This document shows positions 10,291-29,236 of a stretch of DNA of 29,236 nucleotides, piece after piece; position 1 is the stretch's first letter; every line of letters starts with the position of its first letter. Both the position numbers and the translations under genes were made by a program. Source of the DNA: a virus; the IMG/VR virus record IMGVR_UViG_3300035698_016830, positions 1 through 29,236 of that record; one strand, 5' to 3'. Under the pieces are notes generated by a model. That model was not told where the DNA came from. It did no database searches and worked only from the letters and a program-made list of their open reading frames with translations.

Positions 10291-10758
10291 TTACCCTTTC
10301 TCACCTACAATACAAATTCCATTAAGATGATCAACTTCGTGTTGATAAATTCGGGCTGACATATAAGATAGCGTTCCTGTGACAAGTTCATTATTCTCAG
10401 TTTCGTAGGAGACATTAATCTTTCTATGCCTTGCCACCTCTACATACTTGCCAGGATAAGACAGACACCCCTCTACCTGTTTGCTTGGTAGTATATTGGG
10501 TAGGGCATCTGAGAATTCAGGGTTAATCATCACAGTGTAAACAGCCCCAGGAATTTCTTTGACTACGATGATTCGTTTAGCGTAGCCCGCTTGGTTGGCC
10601 GATAGACCTACCCCATGCTTGCTATTAGCCAAGATGTAGATCATATCACGGGTTATATGTCTGATGTCTTCATCAGGGCTTATAGGCTCACATATGGCTT
10701 TTAAAATGGGGTCACCATCAAGCCTTACTTTTGCTGTTGGTCTTTGTTTTCGTTTCAT
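10291..10758 (-). CDS. def: Peptide deformylase
   Basis: All three PDF motifs: GVGLSANQ, EGCLS, QHEVDHLNG. ATG at 10758 follows GAAGGAG. Confidence 0.95.
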   Translation of the reverse strand: MKRKQRPTAKVRLDGDPILKAICEPISPDEDIRHITRDMIYILANSKHGVGLSANQAGYAKRIIVVKEIPGAVYTVMINPEFSDALPNILPSKQVEGCLSYPGKYVEVARHRKINVSYETENNELVTGTLSYMSARIYQHEVDHLNGICIVGEKG

Positions 10759-10814
10759 TTTATTCAATCTCCTTCAATTGTTGCTCTTTTGCAGAGGGCG
10801 TGATGTATCATGGG

Positions 10815-11432
10815 TTATTCCTTAATCCATCTCTGAGTATTGATACAGATTGCTTGGATCGGGTCTTTCCATATTTTCCACCATCTTAGGCCACTTTTCC
10901 CATCCATAGCTAAAATTGCCTTGTCAGAAAAAGCAAACCAGTCGTCCATAGAATGGAATTCACACCCAATTCTTATGTGCTTATCCCAGACAAAAACAAA
11001 ATAATCAGAGCAATCAAGTTGATACGGGGTTAGTAAAATCTCTATGCCATTTTGAATTTTTGCCCCACGCAGGTTTGCCCAACTCAGATTTGCCCAACTC
11101 AGATTTGCCTCACTCAGATTTGCCCCACGCAGGTTTGCTCCACGCAGGTTTGCTCCATGCAGGTTTGCCCAACTCAGATTTGCCCCACGCAGGTTTGCTC
11201 CACGCAGGTTTGCCCAATTCAGATTTGCCCCACTCAGATTTGCCTCACTCAGATTTGCCTCACGCAGGTTTGCCTCACTCAGATTTGCCCCACTCAGGTT
11301 TGCTCCACGCAGGTTTGCCCCACTCAGATTTGTCCCAGTTCTCAATGCCTCAAGAACGGTATTCTGAGTTGTTTCATAATCGCCCTCAAATAAGATGGCA
11401 TCCGTTACTCTGTGTTTGATCGTGATTTTCAT
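10815..11432 (-). CDS. Pentapeptide-repeat protein
   Basis: About 18 tandem ANL(S/R/N/H)(G/E/W) repeats. C-terminal 'IRIGCEFH...W' domain is common in phage pentapeptide proteins. Confidence 0.92.
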
Positions 11433-15469: not shown

Positions 15470-15553
15470 GCCTGGATGATGGAATTGGCAGACATGGGAG
15501 GCTTAAAATCTCCTGCTCAATAGAGTATATGGGTTCGAGTCCCATTCTGGGCA
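15470..15553 (+). tRNA. tRNA-Leu (anticodon TAA)
   Basis: Acceptor GCCTGGA/TCTGGGC-A, D-loop GGAATTGGCAGAC, anticodon arm GGAGG-CTTAAAA-TCTCC, long variable arm, ATGGG-TTCGAGT-CCCAT. Confidence 0.92.
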
Positions 15554-23309: not shown

Positions 23310-24233
23310 ATGGCAACAAGACAAACTGTATATCCATGGGCAGGGTTAGGATTCAATTTATCACCTGAAGGAACTGCTGATACTTGGGCAAAGGAATCCA
23401 AATTAGACTGGACAGCAGAAAAAGCACCAGTATTATTTAATGCTGATGGTCAAAGGAGTTGGCCTCACCAGAACGTATTGTTCCGGTCAGATACGAAAAG
23501 GCCGTTAGCCCATGTATCAGATAGGTATAAGACAGTACAGCCTAAAACCATCCTGAATTTCTTCAAAGATATCGCAGAGGCTTACGATGGATTTAGTATT
23601 CAGGTGGCGGGTAAGATTCACGGTGGTGAGCGAATTTGGGCTATCGCAAAATCAGAGACAATGCCTATAGATCTTGTTGGGGATAAGATCAACAGGTACC
23701 TTCTTATGGCTACCAGCTACGATAAGTCCTGGCCCACATTTGTGAAGCAAACTTCTATGCGGCCCATTTGTGCGAATGTATTGGCGTCCGCAGAAGGAAG
23801 AATAAGCTTCAAGCATATCAGTGCGGTTAGCCTGACTTCTATCCGCGAAAAGATGGATATGGATACAGCCTGGAATTCATTTAATGAGTTGATACATAAG
23901 GCCGTTGATACGAAAATGACTGAGGTTGAGTCACGTAGATTCTTTGATACTATCCTTTTTCCAAAGACGACAAAGGATAAAGAGTTCTATTCACAGAAGG
24001 CAGCTGACAAAACTTTGGATAATATCATATCCATCCTACACGCTGCCCCCGGTCAGAATACTAAGGCCGCTAAAGGCAGTCTATTTGGTACACTGAACGC
24101 CTTGTCTTATTGGACTACGCATAGTGGTAGCCCACGATCTAATTCAGGGCGATTTCTAAGAGCATTCGGTGACGAAACTGTTAGTATTCAGCGTATAGCT
24201 TTGTTAGCAGCTGCTGAAAGGGTAGCAGCATAA
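23310..24233 (+). CDS. DUF932/DUF945-family phage/plasmid protein
   Basis: PWAGLG, LDWT, RSDT..PL..VSDRYK.VQP, AG.I.GG..IW, Y.L...SYD, R.IC.N, G.L.G..NA. Confidence 0.8.
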   Translation: MATRQTVYPWAGLGFNLSPEGTADTWAKESKLDWTAEKAPVLFNADGQRSWPHQNVLFRSDTKRPLAHVSDRYKTVQPKTILNFFKDIAEAYDGFSIQVAGKIHGGERIWAIAKSETMPIDLVGDKINRYLLMATSYDKSWPTFVKQTSMRPICANVLASAEGRISFKHISAVSLTSIREKMDMDTAWNSFNELIHKAVDTKMTEVESRRFFDTILFPKTTKDKEFYSQKAADKTLDNIISILHAAPGQNTKAAKGSLFGTLNALSYWTTHSGSPRSNSGRFLRAFGDETVSIQRIALLAAAERVAA

Positions 24234-24262: not shown

Positions 24263-24547
24263 ATGAGTAAGAATTATTTTCCACAAGCAATTGATGTTTT
24301 GATTAATCAGTGTCAGGGCGTCGAGGGGTCTGCCCTATATGCTATTTTGGTAGAGATTGCTAAAAGCAAACCATCAGAAGTTGTAAAGGCGGCAGAGCGA
24401 GTTCGTAGGCTAAAGGGCATTTTAACTTGGGAGAATAAATGTCGTATTCTTTTGGCTTCTGGACATAAGATTGACGCTATCAAGGAATGCTGTGCTCTTA
24501 CGGGTTGGGGATTGAGGGAGGCAAAAGAAGCGGTCGAACGTCTTTGA
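24263..24547 (+). CDS. Protein with a ribosomal bL12 (L7/L12) C-terminal-like domain
   Basis: KIDAIKECCALTGWGLREAKEAVE matches KIxxIKxxRxxTGxGLKEAKxxVE. Confidence 0.75.
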   Translation: MSKNYFPQAIDVLINQCQGVEGSALYAILVEIAKSKPSEVVKAAERVRRLKGILTWENKCRILLASGHKIDAIKECCALTGWGLREAKEAVERL

Positions 24548-24568: not shown

Positions 24569-24630
24569 TCGGGGCTAGGCACGATCAGCCGAATTGGTGG
24601 GACGTCCTGCCACCTTGCCCCGATCTTTTT
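24569..24630 (+). terminator. GC-rich structured element / terminator upstream of the RAMP gene
   Basis: TCGGGGC(T)AGG / CCT(T)GCCCCGA stem followed by TCTTTTT. Confidence 0.6.
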
Positions 24631-24705
24631 GAATCAGGACCATCATTAAGGACAGTGATTTTGATAGCAGTATAAATATTAAACTATTTTGAAAGGACAG
24701 TTAAG

Positions 24706-25395
24706 ATGAAAGTAAAATTTGAATTTGTAGCTCCCTTGTTGGGAACAATATCAGGCAACAAAGATGTTGCGACTGAGTTTATTGTTGCCAAGGCAGCAGA
24801 AAACAGGAATTTGGATGTGGAGGAAATAGTAACAATAAAGAAGGAGGAATTGTCTACTTTGCCCGCTGAAGATATAGACAAGTCATCTACTTTATTTCAT
24901 AGGGATGAGGAAGGTAGACCATTTCTTTATTCTTATATGATTAATGGTTTCTTCAAAGCTGCTTGTGATGCTATGATTGATGGTGACGGTGAGAATGATA
25001 TTTTCAAGAAGCACACAAAGAAAGAATTGAAGGATATGAAGCTTACACGTTGGTCTTACAAAAGCACAATAAATAAATTGATCAGAGTAAAGGAAAGGAG
25101 ATTGTATTTAGCTTTGTCTGGACCAATAGATGTGGAAGAAAGGTCTATGCGAGTTACTACTATGCAAGGGGATAGGGTCTGCTTAGCAAGATCTGAATCA
25201 GCTCCAGAAGGAACAACAATTGAACTAACTATAGAATGTCTTAATTCAAAATTATGGCCTTATATTGAGGAATGGTTGGGCTATGGTATATTTGGTGGGT
25301 TGGGTCAATGGAGATCTAGTTACTTTGGATCTTTTACGTGGGAGCGTCTTGATGCTCCGGTAAAGAAAACAAGAACAAAGCTTGCTGTATCATGA
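24706..25395 (+). CDS. Stand-alone Cas7-group RAMP-like protein
   Basis: Beta1 KVKFEFVAPLLG; FHRDEEGRPFLYSYMINGFFKAA (compare Csm3/Cmr4 GxPxIPGSSxKGxxR); E.APEGT.IEL.I; terminal Gly-rich loop GGLGQWRSSYFGSF (compare GLGGxRSRGYGxF). Confidence 0.75.
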   Translation: MKVKFEFVAPLLGTISGNKDVATEFIVAKAAENRNLDVEEIVTIKKEELSTLPAEDIDKSSTLFHRDEEGRPFLYSYMINGFFKAACDAMIDGDGENDIFKKHTKKELKDMKLTRWSYKSTINKLIRVKERRLYLALSGPIDVEERSMRVTTMQGDRVCLARSESAPEGTTIELTIECLNSKLWPYIEEWLGYGIFGGLGQWRSSYFGSFTWERLDAPVKKTRTKLAVS

Positions 25396-25410
25396 ATACC
25401 TACCAAATTT

Positions 25411-25564
25411 GTTTGGTATAAAAGTAAAAGTATGGTCAGGTATCGTTTTGTTTGGGTATTGTTTTGTGATGGTATAGTATAGTAGAGTTGGGTGGAGTTG
25501 AGTATCGTAAAGTATTGGTTTAGTGATGTCCTGTCAAGTAACGGTTATGTATTGGTTTAGTAAG
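25411..25564 (+). repeat. Non-coding array of 29 GT-NNN units (5-nt period, occasional 6-nt unit); candidate guide RNA
   Basis: GTTTG GTATA(AAA) GTAAAA GTATG GTCAG GTATC GTTTT GTTTGG GTATT GTTTT GTGATG GTATA GTATA GTAGA GTTGG GTGGA GTTGA GTATC GTAAA GTATTG GTTTA GTGAT GTCCT GTCAA GTAACG GTTAT GTATTG GTTTA GTAAG. Confidence 0.9.
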
Positions 25565-25607
25565 GATTATTTGCAAAAAGTAGTATTTATCTAGAAAGGA
25601 CAGTAAG

Positions 25608-26441
25608 ATGATAACCGAACAGATTGTATTCAAAAGAAGGCATTATCTTACACGCAAAGGTATACGTAGGAAAATTTTAAAGGAAAGGGAAGACAGCAAA
25701 CTTAGAAAAGAATGCTATATTGAGCGTATTGAATTAGTTAGGGTAGCAAAGAAAAGAAAGATTCTTAATTTTGTACCCAAATGGAATGCAAGCGTTGAAG
25801 GCTATGTGATTAACCAAATTAGAAAACATGCATGGCGTATGAGAAACAGGTATACGTCAGAGGATTTGTATCAGGAAGCTTATCTAGTTTTTGATAGAGT
25901 GAAGAAAAGGTACCCGTATATAAGAGAACCACAACATTTCATGTCATTATTCAAAACGAGTTTGTATAATACCTTTGTTGATCTGATGAACAAAACTAGA
26001 AGGATACCAGTATTTTCCTGTGAATTGATAGATGATGAGGAGCAAGGCAGTTTTGAAAATACATTAGAGGCTCATTCATTTTGTGAATCTGATGTAGAGT
26101 TAATGCTGCAAATGCAGGATGCGCCAGCTTTATTAATTCCAATATTTCAGCATTTTTGTGATGTTAATGAGATCAAATCCTTGCTATTATTAAGAGATGA
26201 TCAGGAAGAACTGCACGTAGCTAAGAAGCCAAGGGAGAATTCTAAGGCTATAAGGAAGCATAAAATCACGTTACAGGGCAATGAGTTATTTTGGGAAATT
26301 ATAAGAAGATACATTTGTAAGATGAAAAAGCAGGATTATCTTTCTCCCGATAGTTTCCAAATTCCTGTTTCTGTTCAGAAACGTATAAATATAAAACAAA
26401 TACTAATGCAGTGGTACAATGGGGACCAGAGTTCAAAATAA
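25608..26441 (+). CDS. Sigma-factor-like protein (region 2)
   Basis: EDLYQEAYLVF...YP....F..LF...L.N.F.DL pattern; GAAAGGACAG RBS. Confidence 0.65.
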   Translation: MITEQIVFKRRHYLTRKGIRRKILKEREDSKLRKECYIERIELVRVAKKRKILNFVPKWNASVEGYVINQIRKHAWRMRNRYTSEDLYQEAYLVFDRVKKRYPYIREPQHFMSLFKTSLYNTFVDLMNKTRRIPVFSCELIDDEEQGSFENTLEAHSFCESDVELMLQMQDAPALLIPIFQHFCDVNEIKSLLLLRDDQEELHVAKKPRENSKAIRKHKITLQGNELFWEIIRRYICKMKKQDYLSPDSFQIPVSVQKRINIKQILMQWYNGDQSSK

Positions 26442-26495: not shown

Positions 26496-27038
26496 ATGGC
26501 AATTAAAACATACACAGTAAGAAAAGAGATGTTTGTTGATTATGCTCATCACATAGCTAAGCATCCTGGGGCCTGCATGAATATTCATGGGCATACTTGG
26601 TGTTGGCAAGTATCCTTATCTGCTACAGAGTTGGATGAGTTAGGGATGGTGATGGATTTTTCAGTAATTAAGAAACACCTTTTAACCACTGTGCATGAAT
26701 TGTTTGATCATAGTTTGGTTTTGGGGGCTGCTGAGTATAACGATATCCATAGTAATTTTGCAGCAATAGGAAAGTTGTTTCGGGCTGGTAGCCCTGCAAG
26801 GAAAAAGATGCTTCCTGGATTTTTATTTATGGGGGTTTCGAATTATCCTAGAGGGAGTTTGAAAGTAGTGACCACAGAGTTTGTACCAACTTGTGAAACG
26901 TTAGCAGGGTGGTTTTTTGATTATGCAGAAAATGAATTGGAGCGGCTAGATTTGCATAGAAGAGTGAAAGTCGCTTCAGTCTGTATATATGAATGTCTTC
27001 ATCCTACAACTTCGTGTTGTACGGTGAGTAAATTGTAA
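26496..27038 (+). CDS. queD: 6-carboxy-5,6,7,8-tetrahydropterin synthase
   Basis: DYAH, CMNIHGHTW, GMVMDFSVIK, FDH, PTCETLA. Confidence 0.92.
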   Translation: MAIKTYTVRKEMFVDYAHHIAKHPGACMNIHGHTWCWQVSLSATELDELGMVMDFSVIKKHLLTTVHELFDHSLVLGAAEYNDIHSNFAAIGKLFRAGSPARKKMLPGFLFMGVSNYPRGSLKVVTTEFVPTCETLAGWFFDYAENELERLDLHRRVKVASVCIYECLHPTTSCCTVSKL

Positions 27039-27070: not shown

Positions 27071-27895
27071 ATGGCTAGTAAACTAGAGAAGGAAATTCTG
27101 AAAGCAACAGGTGCGAAGAAGCAAGGTAAGAAGGAACAGGAACAAATTTATCTTGGACGGCTTGTTCATGCAGCACAAGCTGTTGATGAGGAATCTTGGG
27201 ATGAGCTAAGTGAGAAGGCCCAGGATTGGTTAAATGAGGGTGTTGAGGCCTTGAATGATGGTGATGATGTTAAATCTCTTGGTGAAGAGAAACCAAAGAA
27301 ACCAAAGGAGGAGCTTAAGAAACGAAAGACGAAGAAGAAGGCAAAGAAGGAACCAGAGCCAGAGCCAGAGCCCGATGATTCAGACGATGACGATGACTCA
27401 GACGATGACTCAGACGATGACGATGACTCAGACGATGACTCAGACGATGACTCAGACGATGACTCAGACGATGACTCAGACGATGATTCAGACGATGATT
27501 CAGACGATGACGATGACTCAGACGATGATTCAGACGAAGACGATGATTCAGACGAAGACGATGATGATGATTCTGACGATGATTCAGATAATGACGATGA
27601 TTCAGATAATGACGATGATTCAGACGAAGATGAAGAACCTGCTCCTGGGAAACACAAAAAGGTTGAGAAGGAAGCTAGTAAGAAAACAGAGGAGGATAAA
27701 CCTAAACCCAAGAAACGTGGGGCCCTCAATGAGGCACGCAAGGTAATACTTACCAACCCGAAATTGTCTGTTGATGAAGTGGTAGCAAAGATGGAAGAAG
27801 CTGGTTTTACTACTTCTCCAGCTTCGGTGGCCAGCGTTCAGTACGAAATTAAAAACACGTTAAAGGTTATGAAAGATCTTGATATGTTGAAGTAG
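27071..27895 (+). CDS. Protein with a long Asp/Ser acidic tract flanked by Lys-rich segments
   Basis: About 88-aa (DDDS)n-type tract; AAAGGA RBS; folded-looking N- and C-termini. Confidence 0.85.
   Translation: MASKLEKEILKATGAKKQGKKEQEQIYLGRLVHAAQAVDEESWDELSEKAQDWLNEGVEALNDGDDVKSLGEEKPKKPKEELKKRKTKKKAKKEPEPEPEPDDSDDDDDSDDDSDDDDDSDDDSDDDSDDDSDDDSDDDSDDDSDDDDDSDDDSDEDDDSDEDDDDDSDDDSDNDDDSDNDDDSDEDEEPAPGKHKKVEKEASKKTEEDKPKPKKRGALNEARKVILTNPKLSVDEVVAKMEEAGFTTSPASVASVQYEIKNTLKVMKDLDMLK
27374..27636 (+). repeat. Coding tandem repeat, unit GACGATGA(C/T)TCA
   Basis: 12-bp units with 6-bp expansions. Confidence 0.95.
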
Positions 27896-27992: not shown

Positions 27993-28691
27993 ATGCCAAG
28001 TGCCTTGGTAGTTTTTTCTGGGGGACAAGATTCCACCACCTGTCTATATGCAGCTAAAAAGGCCCATGATGAAGTGACAGCTTTATGTTTTGATTATGGT
28101 CAAAAGCATATTATTGAGCTTGAGTCTGCTAGTAGAATAGCTGATATGGTTGAGTGCAAATTGATTAAGATGCCAATTCCTGGAGTTCTTAGTGGAACAA
28201 GCCCTCTTATTTATCATGAGAATCAGGTTCATACTTATGAGTCAGCTGATGTTCTTCCAGGGGGTTTGGAGAATACTTTTGTTCCGGCACGTAATTTGTT
28301 GTTTTTAACTATAGCTGCTTCAGTGGCCTATGCTATTGGAGCTGATTATTTATATACTGGAGTGTGTCAAGCTGATTTTGGTGGTTATCCTGATTGTAGG
28401 CAGTCTTTTATTGACGTAGCAGAAAAGGCGATAAACCAAGCTTTGTTCTTGCCTGAAGATGAAAGACATTTGAGTATCGAAACTCCTTTGATGAATTTTA
28501 CAAAGGCTGAATCTGTTTTGTTTGCTAAGGGTTTACCGGGATGTTTCGACGCTTTGGCTTATTCTCACACTTGCTATCAAGGGGTTTGCCCTCCTTGTGG
28601 TAAATGCCATTCATGTCTGTTGCGTTCTCGTGGTTTTGGCGAGGCTGGTATTGAAGATCCATTGTTGACTAGATTAAGAGGTGAGTTATGA
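27993..28691 (+). CDS. queC: 7-cyano-7-deazaguanine (preQ0) synthase (start re-called)
   Basis: FSGGQDSTTC, FDYGQKH, TFVPARN, GYPDCR, TPLM...K, TCY...CGKCHSC. AGGAG RBS before ATG 27993. Confidence 0.96.
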   Translation: MPSALVVFSGGQDSTTCLYAAKKAHDEVTALCFDYGQKHIIELESASRIADMVECKLIKMPIPGVLSGTSPLIYHENQVHTYESADVLPGGLENTFVPARNLLFLTIAASVAYAIGADYLYTGVCQADFGGYPDCRQSFIDVAEKAINQALFLPEDERHLSIETPLMNFTKAESVLFAKGLPGCFDALAYSHTCYQGVCPPCGKCHSCLLRSRGFGEAGIEDPLLTRLRGEL

Positions 28692-29236
28692 GTTTGCCTG
28701 ATGTGCAAAATAGTACAGATAGTCGGGGTATTTCAATAAATGAAGTTGGAATTACTGGGGTCAAGGTCCCTATATCATTTCCAGGAAAAGATGGAAGTCA
28801 GCACCATTCAGTAGCTGATATTGATATGGGTGTGTATTTGCCTGCTGATCAAAAAGGAACCCACATGTCCAGGTTCCAGACCATTCTTTCTGATTCAGAG
28901 CTTCATTTACCGCAGACAGGGGATTATTTGAAAAGGATAACCACTGAATTGGGATCACGAAAGGCATTCATGCGTCTTGAATTTCCTTTATTTACATCTG
29001 TATGTTCCCCTGTTTCTGGGTTGAGTGGTTCTCTTGACTACCATTGTTATTATAGAGCTTATTATGACGCTAGGGCTGACTCATTATGTGAGCTTATAGG
29101 AGTTAAGGCCCCTGTTACTACCCTTTGTCCTTGTTCTAAGGAAATAGCAGTAGAAGGGGCTCATAATCAGCGAGCCTATGTGAGTGCCCTGATGATGTCT
29201 TTGGTTTTTCATGATAGGGTGTGGTTTGAAGATCTT
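28688..29236 (+). CDS. folE2: GTP cyclohydrolase IB (3' truncated by the window), absent from the ORF track
   Basis: ATGA overlap with queC; MSLPDVQ...VGITGVKVP...KGTHMSRF...SPVSG...VTTLCPCSKEI...GAHNQR. Confidence 0.93.
   Translation, partial: MSLPDVQNSTDSRGISINEVGITGVKVPISFPGKDGSQHHSVADIDMGVYLPADQKGTHMSRFQTILSDSELHLPQTGDYLKRITTELGSRKAFMRLEFPLFTSVCSPVSGLSGSLDYHCYYRAYYDARADSLCELIGVKAPVTTLCPCSKEIAVEGAHNQRAYVSALMMSLVFHDRVWFEDL

What the first reader, a model, noticed from the sequence alone, without database searches (positions are those of the whole stretch)
24706..25564. Solo Cas7-like RAMP gene coupled to a 5-nt-periodic GT-NNN array: candidate CRISPR-independent RNA-guided system
Seen: a 229-aa ORF with RAMP hallmarks (N-terminal beta strand plus 'PLLG', a 'G.P.L...I.G.FK.A' helix, a C-terminal Gly-rich loop). 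Fifteen nt after its stop begin 29 consecutive units that all start with GT and vary in the next 3 nt. No CRISPR repeats, cas1/2, cas5/6/8 or nuclease are in the window. Known: Cas7-group RAMPs polymerise on guide RNA with a fixed footprint per subunit (6 nt in class 1 effectors). Inference: each subunit grips the constant GT of one 5-nt unit and displays the variable bases, giving a discontinuous guide that could bind DNA/RNA of competing phages or the host and act by repression. From memory, and unverified, this resembles the recently reported phage VIPR systems (RAMP plus GGY/NN RNA). Here the constant part is only GT (NGT-NN or GT-NNN), so it may be a divergent code.
Basis: partly seen in the sequence, partly recalled or inferred. 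Interest (0 to 1): 0.95.

Follow-up and report, generated by a model that had tools for sequence, protein, structure and literature searches.

The report
Phage VIPR system, GU-NNN guide array

Summary
Both parts of the observation are real. ORF 24706-25395 folds with high confidence (pLDDT 91.9) as a single-domain Cas7-type RAMP; the best structural matches are Csm3, type VII Cas7 and Cmr4. Sixteen bases after its stop lie 29 GT-initiated units (25411-25564). Of the 28 spacings, 22 are 5 nt, five are 6 nt and one is 8 nt, far beyond chance.

The protein family is large: 1,287 clusters at 50% identity. In 233 of 240 related loci the gene is flanked on its own strand by a long G-Y-NNN array.

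The system matches VIPR (Vipr RAMP plus vrRNA; bioRxiv 10.64898/2026.04.26.720920). That paper already lists YNNNG repeats and staggered arrays with 1-nt offsets. Homology to the characterised SUSP1 Vipr is distant but colinear (hhalign 77%, E 2e-5), with shared NGxxxxAC and GxG(D/Q)WR motifs.

No CRISPR repeats, Cas1 or Cas6 were found in the 105.9-kb phage record. No target was found under four decoding rules, so the code of this GY-NNN form stays open.

This scan has found such systems before on other DNA, including GY-NNN forms. Verdict: new member of a known kind; moderate-low interest.

The parts
24569..24634 (+). Terminator-like GC-rich hairpin followed by CUUUUU, upstream of the locus; it probably ends the preceding operon
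   Evidence: RNA fold: stem 24569-24623, MFE -30.5 kcal/mol, z only -0.79. The consensus terminator scan did not call it. Inferred.
24661..24690 (+). Promoter-like site TTGATA-18-TATTTT just upstream of vipr (weak candidate)
   Evidence: 9 of 12 matches. The number of such sites in the region is no higher than in shuffles, so this is only a candidate.
24706..25395 (+). vipr-like gene: 229-aa single-RRM Cas7-type RAMP with helical insertion (residues 19-50), thumb hairpin (142-166) and G-loop (194-208)
   Evidence: AF2 pLDDT 91.9, pTM 0.86. Foldseek top hits are type VII Cas7, Csm3 and Cas7-11, E 1.6e-7 and weaker. VIA: Csm3 9g9a_D Z 12.0, rmsd 3.8 over 153 residues. Family profile hits the PDB Cas7/Csm4 G-loop, E 3.2e-6. 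hhalign to the SUSP1 Vipr family 77%, E 2e-5.
25401..25418 (+). 7-bp hairpin (TACCAAA / TTTGGTA, loop TTTG) at the 5' edge of the array; it contains the first two GTs
   Evidence: Read from the sequence and present in the fold. Not seen in the relatives inspected.
25424..25564 (+). Candidate vrRNA array: 27 GU-NNN units on the gene strand. 6-nt units ending in an extra G cut it into blocks of 5, 3, 9, 5, 2 and 2 units
   Evidence: No + strand reading frame longer than 37 codons. No excess RNA structure (z +0.54). No Rfam match.
25608..26441 (+). Downstream 277-aa ORF, sub-threshold ECF sigma-70-like; possible accessory (vap-like) gene or simply the next phage gene
   Evidence: NCBIfam TIGR02937 E 1.4e-4, 21.6 bits against a cut-off of 42.9. 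PHROG sigma factor E 0.0036. Atlas neighbours 'putative sigma factor'. Only 3 homologues. Not found beside vipr in 160 related loci.

Best explanation
This is a phage-encoded VIPR-type system. The 229-aa RAMP (Vipr) is transcribed together with, or just before, the downstream array. The array RNA is bound by Vipr protomers, one per 5-nt unit, which grip the constant G-U and present the variable bases. The resulting filament recognises double-stranded DNA of a competing phage, satellite or prophage through a gapped, non-contiguous pairing code and silences it by blocking transcription. The extra-G 6-nt units break the register and probably mark the borders of separate short guides, as in the published 'staggered' arrays.

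Shown here: the RAMP fold; the statistical reality of the array; the conserved gene-array linkage across the family; conservation of G with fast turnover of the other positions; the absence of CRISPR parts. Inferred from the SUSP1 work: transcription, RNP assembly, DNA targeting and repression.
For: - Fold: pLDDT 91.9, with all top PDB matches Cas7-type RAMPs. A profile match to the Cas7/Csm4 G-loop.
- Array: 27-29 GT units against a maximum of 8 in shuffles.
- Family size: 1,287 clusters at 50% identity; more than 560 IMG/VR loci and more than 540 metagenome loci.
- Linkage: an adjacent gene-strand G-Y array of at least 12 units in 155 of 160 loci and 78 of 80 loci. The median is 66-72 units, against 7 in control segments.
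- Second position: C or T in relatives (for example 69% T in L105), so GT here is the Y=U case.
- Substitution rates among loci whose vipr is at least 97% identical: 0.9% at G against 4-6% at positions 2-5.
- Arrays are only 60-90% identical where vipr is at least 99% identical.
- Published VIPR: Vipr plus GGY/NN vrRNA, alternative YNNNG repeats and staggered arrays; one protomer per repeat.
- SUSP1 Vipr was located (KT454805.2 28474-29061) with 9 of the 10 residues cited in the paper matching.
- Homology to it: hhalign 77%, E 2e-5, full length; reciprocal HMM hits of 19-20 bits. Shared motifs NG..(I/K)(E/A)AC and GxG(D/Q)WR...G.F.
Against: - Homology to the characterised Vipr clade is weak (77% probability). 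Pfam, PADLOC and NCBIfam do not recognise the protein.
- There is no evidence of transcription or RNA binding.
- No target was found under any of four decoding rules: in the phage's own genome, in 720 kb of related loci, in IMG/VR (exact patterns) or in GenBank phages.
- There is no conserved 3' tail or pseudoknot like that of the SUSP1 vrRNAs.
- There is no conserved accessory gene.
- The array is short, and its blocks are irregular (2-9 units) compared with the relatives' 5-7-unit modules.
Confidence: 0.85

Rival explanations
1. It is a VIPR relative with a different job or code. The RAMP-RNA filament reads three bases per protomer, or targets RNA rather than DNA (as type III and type VII Cas7 complexes do), so the published 1-nt-skip DNA rule does not apply.
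For: - Only G (and loosely Y) is constant. The base that corresponds to SUSP1's G1 is as variable as the guide bases.
- The two residues that read G1 in SUSP1 (H17, D177) align to T14 and Q201 here.
- The closest solved folds are RNA-targeting Csm3, type VII Cas7 and Cmr4.
- No DNA target was found with the published rule.
Against: - The W-R pair that holds G2 and Y3 in SUSP1 is kept (W202, R203).
- The paper treats YNNNG arrays as part of the same tandem-repeat code.
- The target searches were exact-match only and covered few guides, so the negative results are weak.
- The contiguous-NNN and NNN+1 rules also found nothing.
Confidence: 0.1
2. It is an orphan Cas7 left over from a CRISPR-Cas system, lying by coincidence beside an unrelated simple repeat.
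For: The Cas7 fold, and a G-loop match to Cas7/Csm4.
Against: - No CRISPR-like repeats, Cas1, Cas6 or Pfam RAMP hit in the 105.9-kb record.
- The array accompanies the gene in 233 of 240 loci across phages and MAGs of several phyla.
- The protein lacks the additions of CRISPR Cas7s and clusters with a viral family.
Confidence: 0.02
3. The periodic tract works at the DNA level (iterons, bent DNA, a binding-site array for a DNA-binding protein) or as an RNA sponge for a host protein, and the RAMP link is indirect.
For: A 5-bp period is half a DNA helical turn. No transcription data exist. No terminator or clear promoter was found.
Against: - The signal is strand-specific (G-Y on the gene strand; G far more conserved than its partner).
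- Arrays lie upstream or downstream but always on the gene strand.
- For SUSP1 the equivalent tract is a Vipr-bound RNA.
Confidence: 0.03

Closest known systems
VIPR systems (Viral Interference Programmable Repeat): Vipr protein plus vrRNA. bioRxiv 10.64898/2026.04.26.720920, 10.64898/2026.04.26.720927 and 10.64898/2026.10.15.759431. The characterised example is type II of Escherichia phage SUSP1 (KT454805.2 28474-29061, with flanking GGYNN arrays).
   Same: - A phage-borne, minimal single-RRM RAMP with G-loop, thumb and helical insertion.
- No CRISPR array or cas genes.
- A tandem pentanucleotide array on the gene strand next to the gene, with a constant scaffold and hypervariable bases.
- The G-loop W-R pair is conserved.
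- The paper itself reports YNNNG and NNNNG repeat variants and staggered arrays offset by 1 nt.
   Different: - The constant part is G-U (G-Y in the family), not GGY.
- The residues that read the first G in SUSP1 (H17, D177) are T14 and Q201 here.
- There is no conserved 3' tail or pseudoknot and no recognisable vap1.
- Guides are short blocks of 2-9 units instead of 9-16.
- Sequence similarity to the SUSP1 clade is marginal (hhalign 77%).
- The VIPR type number cannot be assigned from the text available.
Class 1 CRISPR-Cas backbone subunits: Csm3/Cmr4 (type III), type VII Cas7, Csf2 (type IV)
   Same: RRM core, G-loop and thumb (Z 10-12). They polymerise on guide RNA with a fixed footprint per subunit.
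   Different: The footprint is 6 nt on a contiguous spacer, and they need CRISPR repeats, Cas6/Cas5 and partner subunits. None of these is present here. The Pfam RAMP model does not match.
Earlier findings of this scan on other genomes (e1-5739050, e1-3308816): phage VIPR loci with staggered GY-NNN / YNNNG arrays
   Same: Same protein kind and the same two-letter scaffold with 1-nt register shifts.
   Different: Those arrays are much longer (about 600-800 nt). Here there are only about 140 nt, with a pure GU scaffold, in an AT-rich (37.5% GC) salt-lake phage.

Membership tests
VIPR | Vipr protein: small stand-alone RAMP (single RRM, G-loop, thumb, helical bundle) | tested here: met
   AF2 pLDDT 91.9. 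Order of elements: beta1, two-helix insertion, helix-1, thumb hairpin, helix-2, G-loop, last strand. Cas7-type matches at Z 10-12.
VIPR | Sequence homology to an experimentally characterised Vipr (SUSP1) | tested here: inconclusive
   hhalign profile-profile 77%, E 2e-5, colinear over 181 columns. Profile against the single sequence 71%. Reciprocal HMM hits of only 19-20 bits. A direct profile search of the SUSP1 genome found nothing. Shared motifs support homology but fall below usual certainty.
VIPR | Adjacent tandem pentanucleotide array with a constant scaffold and hypervariable bases, on the gene strand | tested here: met
   Window. Family: 155/160 and 78/80 loci against controls. Per-position substitution rates.
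VIPR | Canonical GGY/NN repeat | tested here: not met
   Units are GU-NNN. GGU appears only at the 6-nt register shifts. The published family definition also admits YNNNG and NNNNG repeats, and this array fits those.
VIPR | No CRISPR array and no cas adaptation or processing genes; phage-borne | tested here: met
   Virus record of 105,936 bp. No CRISPR-like repeats. No Cas1, Cas6 or Pfam RAMPs.
VIPR | Accessory vap gene beside vipr | tested here: inconclusive
   The downstream ORF is weakly sigma-70/ECF-like, which would fit a DNA-interacting vap. It has only 3 homologues, and none lies next to vipr in 160 relatives.
VIPR | vrRNA is expressed and co-purifies with Vipr | not testable with these tools
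   Needs small-RNA sequencing and a pull-down.
VIPR | Non-contiguous DNA recognition (NN plus 1 skipped base) with natural targets in competing elements | tested here: inconclusive
   No target above chance for the rules NNx, xNN, NNN or NNNx. The searches were exact-match or limited to small databases.
Class 1 CRISPR-Cas Cas7 | Encoded with CRISPR repeat-spacer array and other cas genes | tested here: not met
   PADLOC and NCBIfam give no Cas model hit for the protein.

The most novel reading that the evidence does not exclude
The G-Y-NNN branch of VIPR, to which this locus belongs, may read DNA (or RNA) with a code different from the published GGY/NN 1-nt-skip rule. One possibility is three displayed bases per protomer. 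The argument is that the pocket for the first G has been lost (H17 to T, D177 to Q) and that position is as hypervariable as the guide bases. The 6-nt units would then delimit very short guides of about one helical turn.
Probability: 0.25. Interest if true: 0.7.

Novelty: new member of a known kind. Interest (0 to 1): 0.35.

Why it matters
It adds a compact, clean example of the little-studied two-letter-scaffold (GY-NNN, staggered) form of VIPR, from an AT-rich salt-lake phage. It also shows that this branch is very large: more than 1,200 clusters at 50% identity, found in phages and in MAGs of Clostridia, Planctomycetota and other groups, with arrays that turn over much faster than the protein gene. 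The decoding rule and processing of this branch have not been shown experimentally. The small size of this locus, about 0.9 kb for gene plus array, makes it a convenient test case. It does not reveal a new kind of system.

Tried and rejected
1. The tract as a translated peptide: no + strand frame exceeds 37 codons, and a 5-nt period cannot be kept by a codon code.
2. The tract as a structured RNA, a ribozyme-punctuated array or a known RNA family: z +0.54 against shuffles, and no Rfam hit even at E 1.
3. A second array in the same phage: the chains at G000 56849-57205 are a 6-nt coding repeat, not a VIPR array.
4. The strongest period-5 signal in the window (11051-11350) is a pentapeptide-repeat gene.
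5. Self-targeting: none under five rules.
6. Cross-targeting among 720 kb of related loci: no different from shuffled guides.
7. IMG/VR exact scans:
   - window block of 9 units under NNx: 2 hits, at the chance level, whose skipped bases do not match the guide's fifth base;
   - the same block under xNN and NNNx: 0 hits;
   - a 10-unit guide of relative L120 under NNx and xNN: 0 hits.
8. blastn of the contiguous-NNN decoding against GenBank phages: nothing below E 0.6.
9. A conserved neighbour gene shared with relatives: none. Clustering of flanking ORFs gave no universal partner.
10. Avoidance of off-register GY holds in the window (P about 0.006) but not across relatives: 1,175 observed against 1,157 expected.
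The nearest locus obtained is 47% identical.
12. VIPR cryo-EM structures are not in the PDB copy searched, so no direct structural comparison with a solved Vipr was possible.

Full report
**Observation**

The window has a 229-aa ORF at 24706-25395 on the + strand. The 212-nt gap before the next gene (25608) holds a tract in which every GT between 25411 and 25560 falls on one chain. There are 29 GTs with 28 spacings: 22 of 5 nt, five of 6 nt and one of 8 nt.

The 6-nt units each carry an extra G before the next GT (25455, 25471, 25517, 25543, 25554). They divide the tract into blocks of 5, 3, 9, 5, 2 and 2 units. The first two GTs lie inside a 7-bp hairpin (25401-25418), so the clean array is 27 units, 25424-25564.

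Shuffles of the same intergenic sequence give chains of at most 8 units. The rest of the + strand gives at most 4. No off-register GT occurs, where about four are expected (P about 0.006). A sliding period-5 score picks out only two regions of the window. The stronger one (11051-11350) is the coding sequence of a pentapeptide-repeat protein on the minus strand, so the tract at 25424-25564 is the only non-coding one.

**The protein**

Pfam, PHROGs, PADLOC and NCBIfam give nothing for it, and a single-sequence PDB search gives nothing. It belongs to a large family: 1,287 clusters at 50% identity with E of 0.001 or better, more than 560 IMG/VR loci and more than 540 metagenome loci.

With a 79-sequence alignment, AlphaFold2 gives pLDDT 91.9 and pTM 0.86. 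The order of elements is: beta-1, a two-helix insertion (residues 19-50), helix-1 (77-92), a long beta-hairpin (142-166), helix-2 (181-195), a Gly-rich loop, and a last strand.

- Foldseek against the PDB returns only Cas7-type RAMPs at the top: type VII Cas7, Csm3, Cmr4 and Cas7-11, from E 1.6e-7.
- The Foldseek-independent aligner gives Csm3 9g9a_D at Z 12.0 (rmsd 3.8, 153 residues), followed by Csm3, Cmr4 and type VII Cas7 at Z 10-11.7.
- The family profile matches the G-loop of a 200-aa Cas7 and of Csm4 in the PDB, at E 3.2e-6 and 1e-3.

The RAMP fold is therefore confirmed.

**The gene-array link**

I parsed G-Y-anchored 5/6-nt units on the gene strand within 700 nt of the gene.

| Set of loci | Loci with an array of at least 12 units | Median units |
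|---|---|---|
| IMG/VR and metagenome loci | 155 of 160 | 66 |
| Contigs of prokaryote MAGs | 78 of 80 | 72 |
| Control 700-nt segments more than 2 kb away | 19.6% | 7 |

- Arrays lie downstream in the nearest relatives and upstream in many gut-phage relatives.
- The first position is G in 94% of units. The second is C in 62%, with T common in some loci (69% in L105, 46% in L092). The window's pure GT is therefore the Y=U end of a G-Y scaffold.
- In relatives the arrays are built of modules of mostly 5-7 units, closed by a 6-nt unit of consensus GCAANG. This is the same +1 register shift as in the window.
- Among loci whose vipr genes are at least 97% identical, the substitution rate per unit position is 0.9% at G and 3.8, 4.3, 5.3 and 6.0% at positions 2-5. 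These pairs are not independent.
- Whole array flanks are only 60-90% identical where the gene is at least 99% identical.

This is the pattern expected of a constant protein-binding scaffold carrying fast-changing guide bases.

**What is known**

The library holds three 2026 preprints on VIPR. The first (10.64898/2026.04.26.720920) describes Vipr, a minimal phage-borne RAMP, and vrRNAs of 9-16 YNNGG repeats. It shows co-purification, a rule in which the NN of each repeat pairs with target DNA while every third target base is skipped, repression of reporters and phages, and natural targets in satellites and prophages. Its methods state that loci lacking YNNGG repeats carry 'NNNGG, YNNNG, and NNNNG repeats'. 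It also describes 'staggered arrays' whose vrRNAs are derived from positions offset by 1 nt. The structure paper shows one protomer per repeat. G1 is read by H17 and D177, G2 by R138 and W178, and Y3 sits in a pocket made by E71, M72 and R179.

The window's G-U-NNN units with +1 shifts therefore fit a published variant.

**Membership test against the characterised system**

I located the SUSP1 Vipr in KT454805.2. It is a 195-aa ORF at 28474-29061 on the minus strand, flanked by GGTNN arrays, and 9 of the 10 residues cited in the paper are at the stated positions.

- A profile of its family against the profile of the window's family gives hhalign probability 77%, E 2e-5, colinear over 181 columns.
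- Profile against the single SUSP1 sequence gives 71%.
- Reciprocal HMM searches give best scores of 19-20 bits.
- A direct profile scan of the SUSP1 genome found nothing.

Homology is therefore distant and not certain from sequence alone. The shared motifs line up: NGEMIEAC against NGFFKAAC in helix-1, and GVGDWRPRFGRF against GLGQWRSSYFGSF in the G-loop. In that alignment W178 and R179 are kept (W202, R203). The two residues that read the first G are replaced (H17 to T14, D177 to Q201). This agrees with the loss of the first constant G in the repeat. That last link is my inference, not a test.

**Context**

- The window is the first 29 kb of a 105,936-bp virus record, about 80% complete. Earlier notes of this scan call it an uncultured salt-lake phage.
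- The record has no CRISPR-like repeats and no Cas1, Cas6 or Pfam RAMP match.
- A GC-rich hairpin followed by a U-run (24569-24634) precedes the gene, with a weak promoter-like site at 24661-24690. No terminator follows the array, so read-through into the next gene is possible.
- That next gene (25608-26441) is weakly ECF-sigma-like. It has three homologues, and none lies beside vipr in 160 relatives. It cannot be called a vap.
- The tract is not more structured than shuffles (z +0.54), has no Rfam match and no + strand frame above 37 codons.

**Targets**

I decoded the blocks under several rules:

- two bases after G-Y plus one skipped base;
- one skipped base plus the last two bases;
- three contiguous bases;
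- three bases plus one or two skipped bases.

The results were all negative or at the chance level.

- The phage's own genome gave nothing above shuffled guides.
- 120 modules of relatives searched against 720 kb of related loci gave nothing above shuffled guides.
- Exact IMG/VR scans with the 9-unit block gave 2 hits under the first rule. That is about what chance predicts for 18 specified bases. Their skipped bases matched the guide's fifth base in only 3 of 8 positions, and the matches did not extend into neighbouring blocks.
- The other rules gave no hits.
- A 10-unit guide of relative L120 gave no hits.
- blastn of the contiguous decoding against GenBank phages gave nothing below E 0.6.

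These searches required exact matches or used small databases, so they do not decide the code.

**Verdict**

The locus is a VIPR system of the G-Y-NNN, staggered form. The kind is published, and this scan has met it on other DNA 18 times, including GY-NNN forms. It is a new member of a known kind.

What stays open, and is the only route to real novelty, is whether this branch uses the published NN-plus-skip code or another one. I give that about 25%.

Noticed in passing
window 10815-11432 (-): A 205-aa pentapeptide-repeat protein (ANLxG-type repeats). Its 15-nt coding period gives the strongest period-5 signal in the window and served as a control.
   Followed up: partly
window 10291-10767 (-): A 158-aa ORF with the EGCLSYPG and HEVDHLNG motifs typical of peptide deformylase. 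Read from the translation only, not run against a family library.
   Followed up: no
window 24688-24708 and 25590-25610: Nearly the same 17-18-nt leader, GAAAGGACAGT(T)AAGATG, precedes both the vipr start and the start of the downstream sigma-like ORF. This suggests a duplicated or shared translation-initiation region.
   Followed up: no
window 27071-27895 (+): A 274-aa protein with a long, extremely acidic Asp/Ser repeat (DDSDDD...) that dominates the period-3 and period-6 scores. PHROG 38529, unknown function.
   Followed up: no
window 26496-27038 (+) and 23310-24233 (+): A QueD-like 6-pyruvoyl-tetrahydropterin synthase (Pfam PTPS, E 9e-24) and a DUF932 protein (E 3e-30) flank the locus. A 94-aa ORF at 24263-24547 has a sub-threshold L7/L12 C-terminal match.
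   Followed up: partly
window 15470-15553 (+): A tRNA gene (Rfam RF00005, 46 bits).
   Followed up: no
G000:C1:56849-57205 (L084 2350-2706), outside the window: Two tandem copies of a hexamer repeat, (GGTCTN) x18 and x32, each behind the same leader. My 5/6-spacing chain search picked them up, but the period is 6 and only one position varies, so it is a coding low-complexity repeat and not a VIPR array. Already noted by the scan as e1-5360500.
   Followed up: partly
L001, L004, L089 and other related loci, arrays next to vipr: In relatives the arrays are built from modules of mostly 5-7 units closed by a 6-nt unit GCAANG followed by GCA. That is about 31 nt, or six protomers, close to the six-subunit turn reported for the Vipr binary filament. 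Whether these are processing sites is unknown.
   Followed up: partly
L167-L169 (MAG contigs of Sedimentisphaerales, Pirellulales, Anaerolineales): The nearest cellular-genome relatives of the window's protein (43-44% identity) are in Planctomycetota and Anaerolineales MAGs, while the bulk of the family is in gut Clostridia. This may hint at the host range of the subgroup.
   Followed up: no
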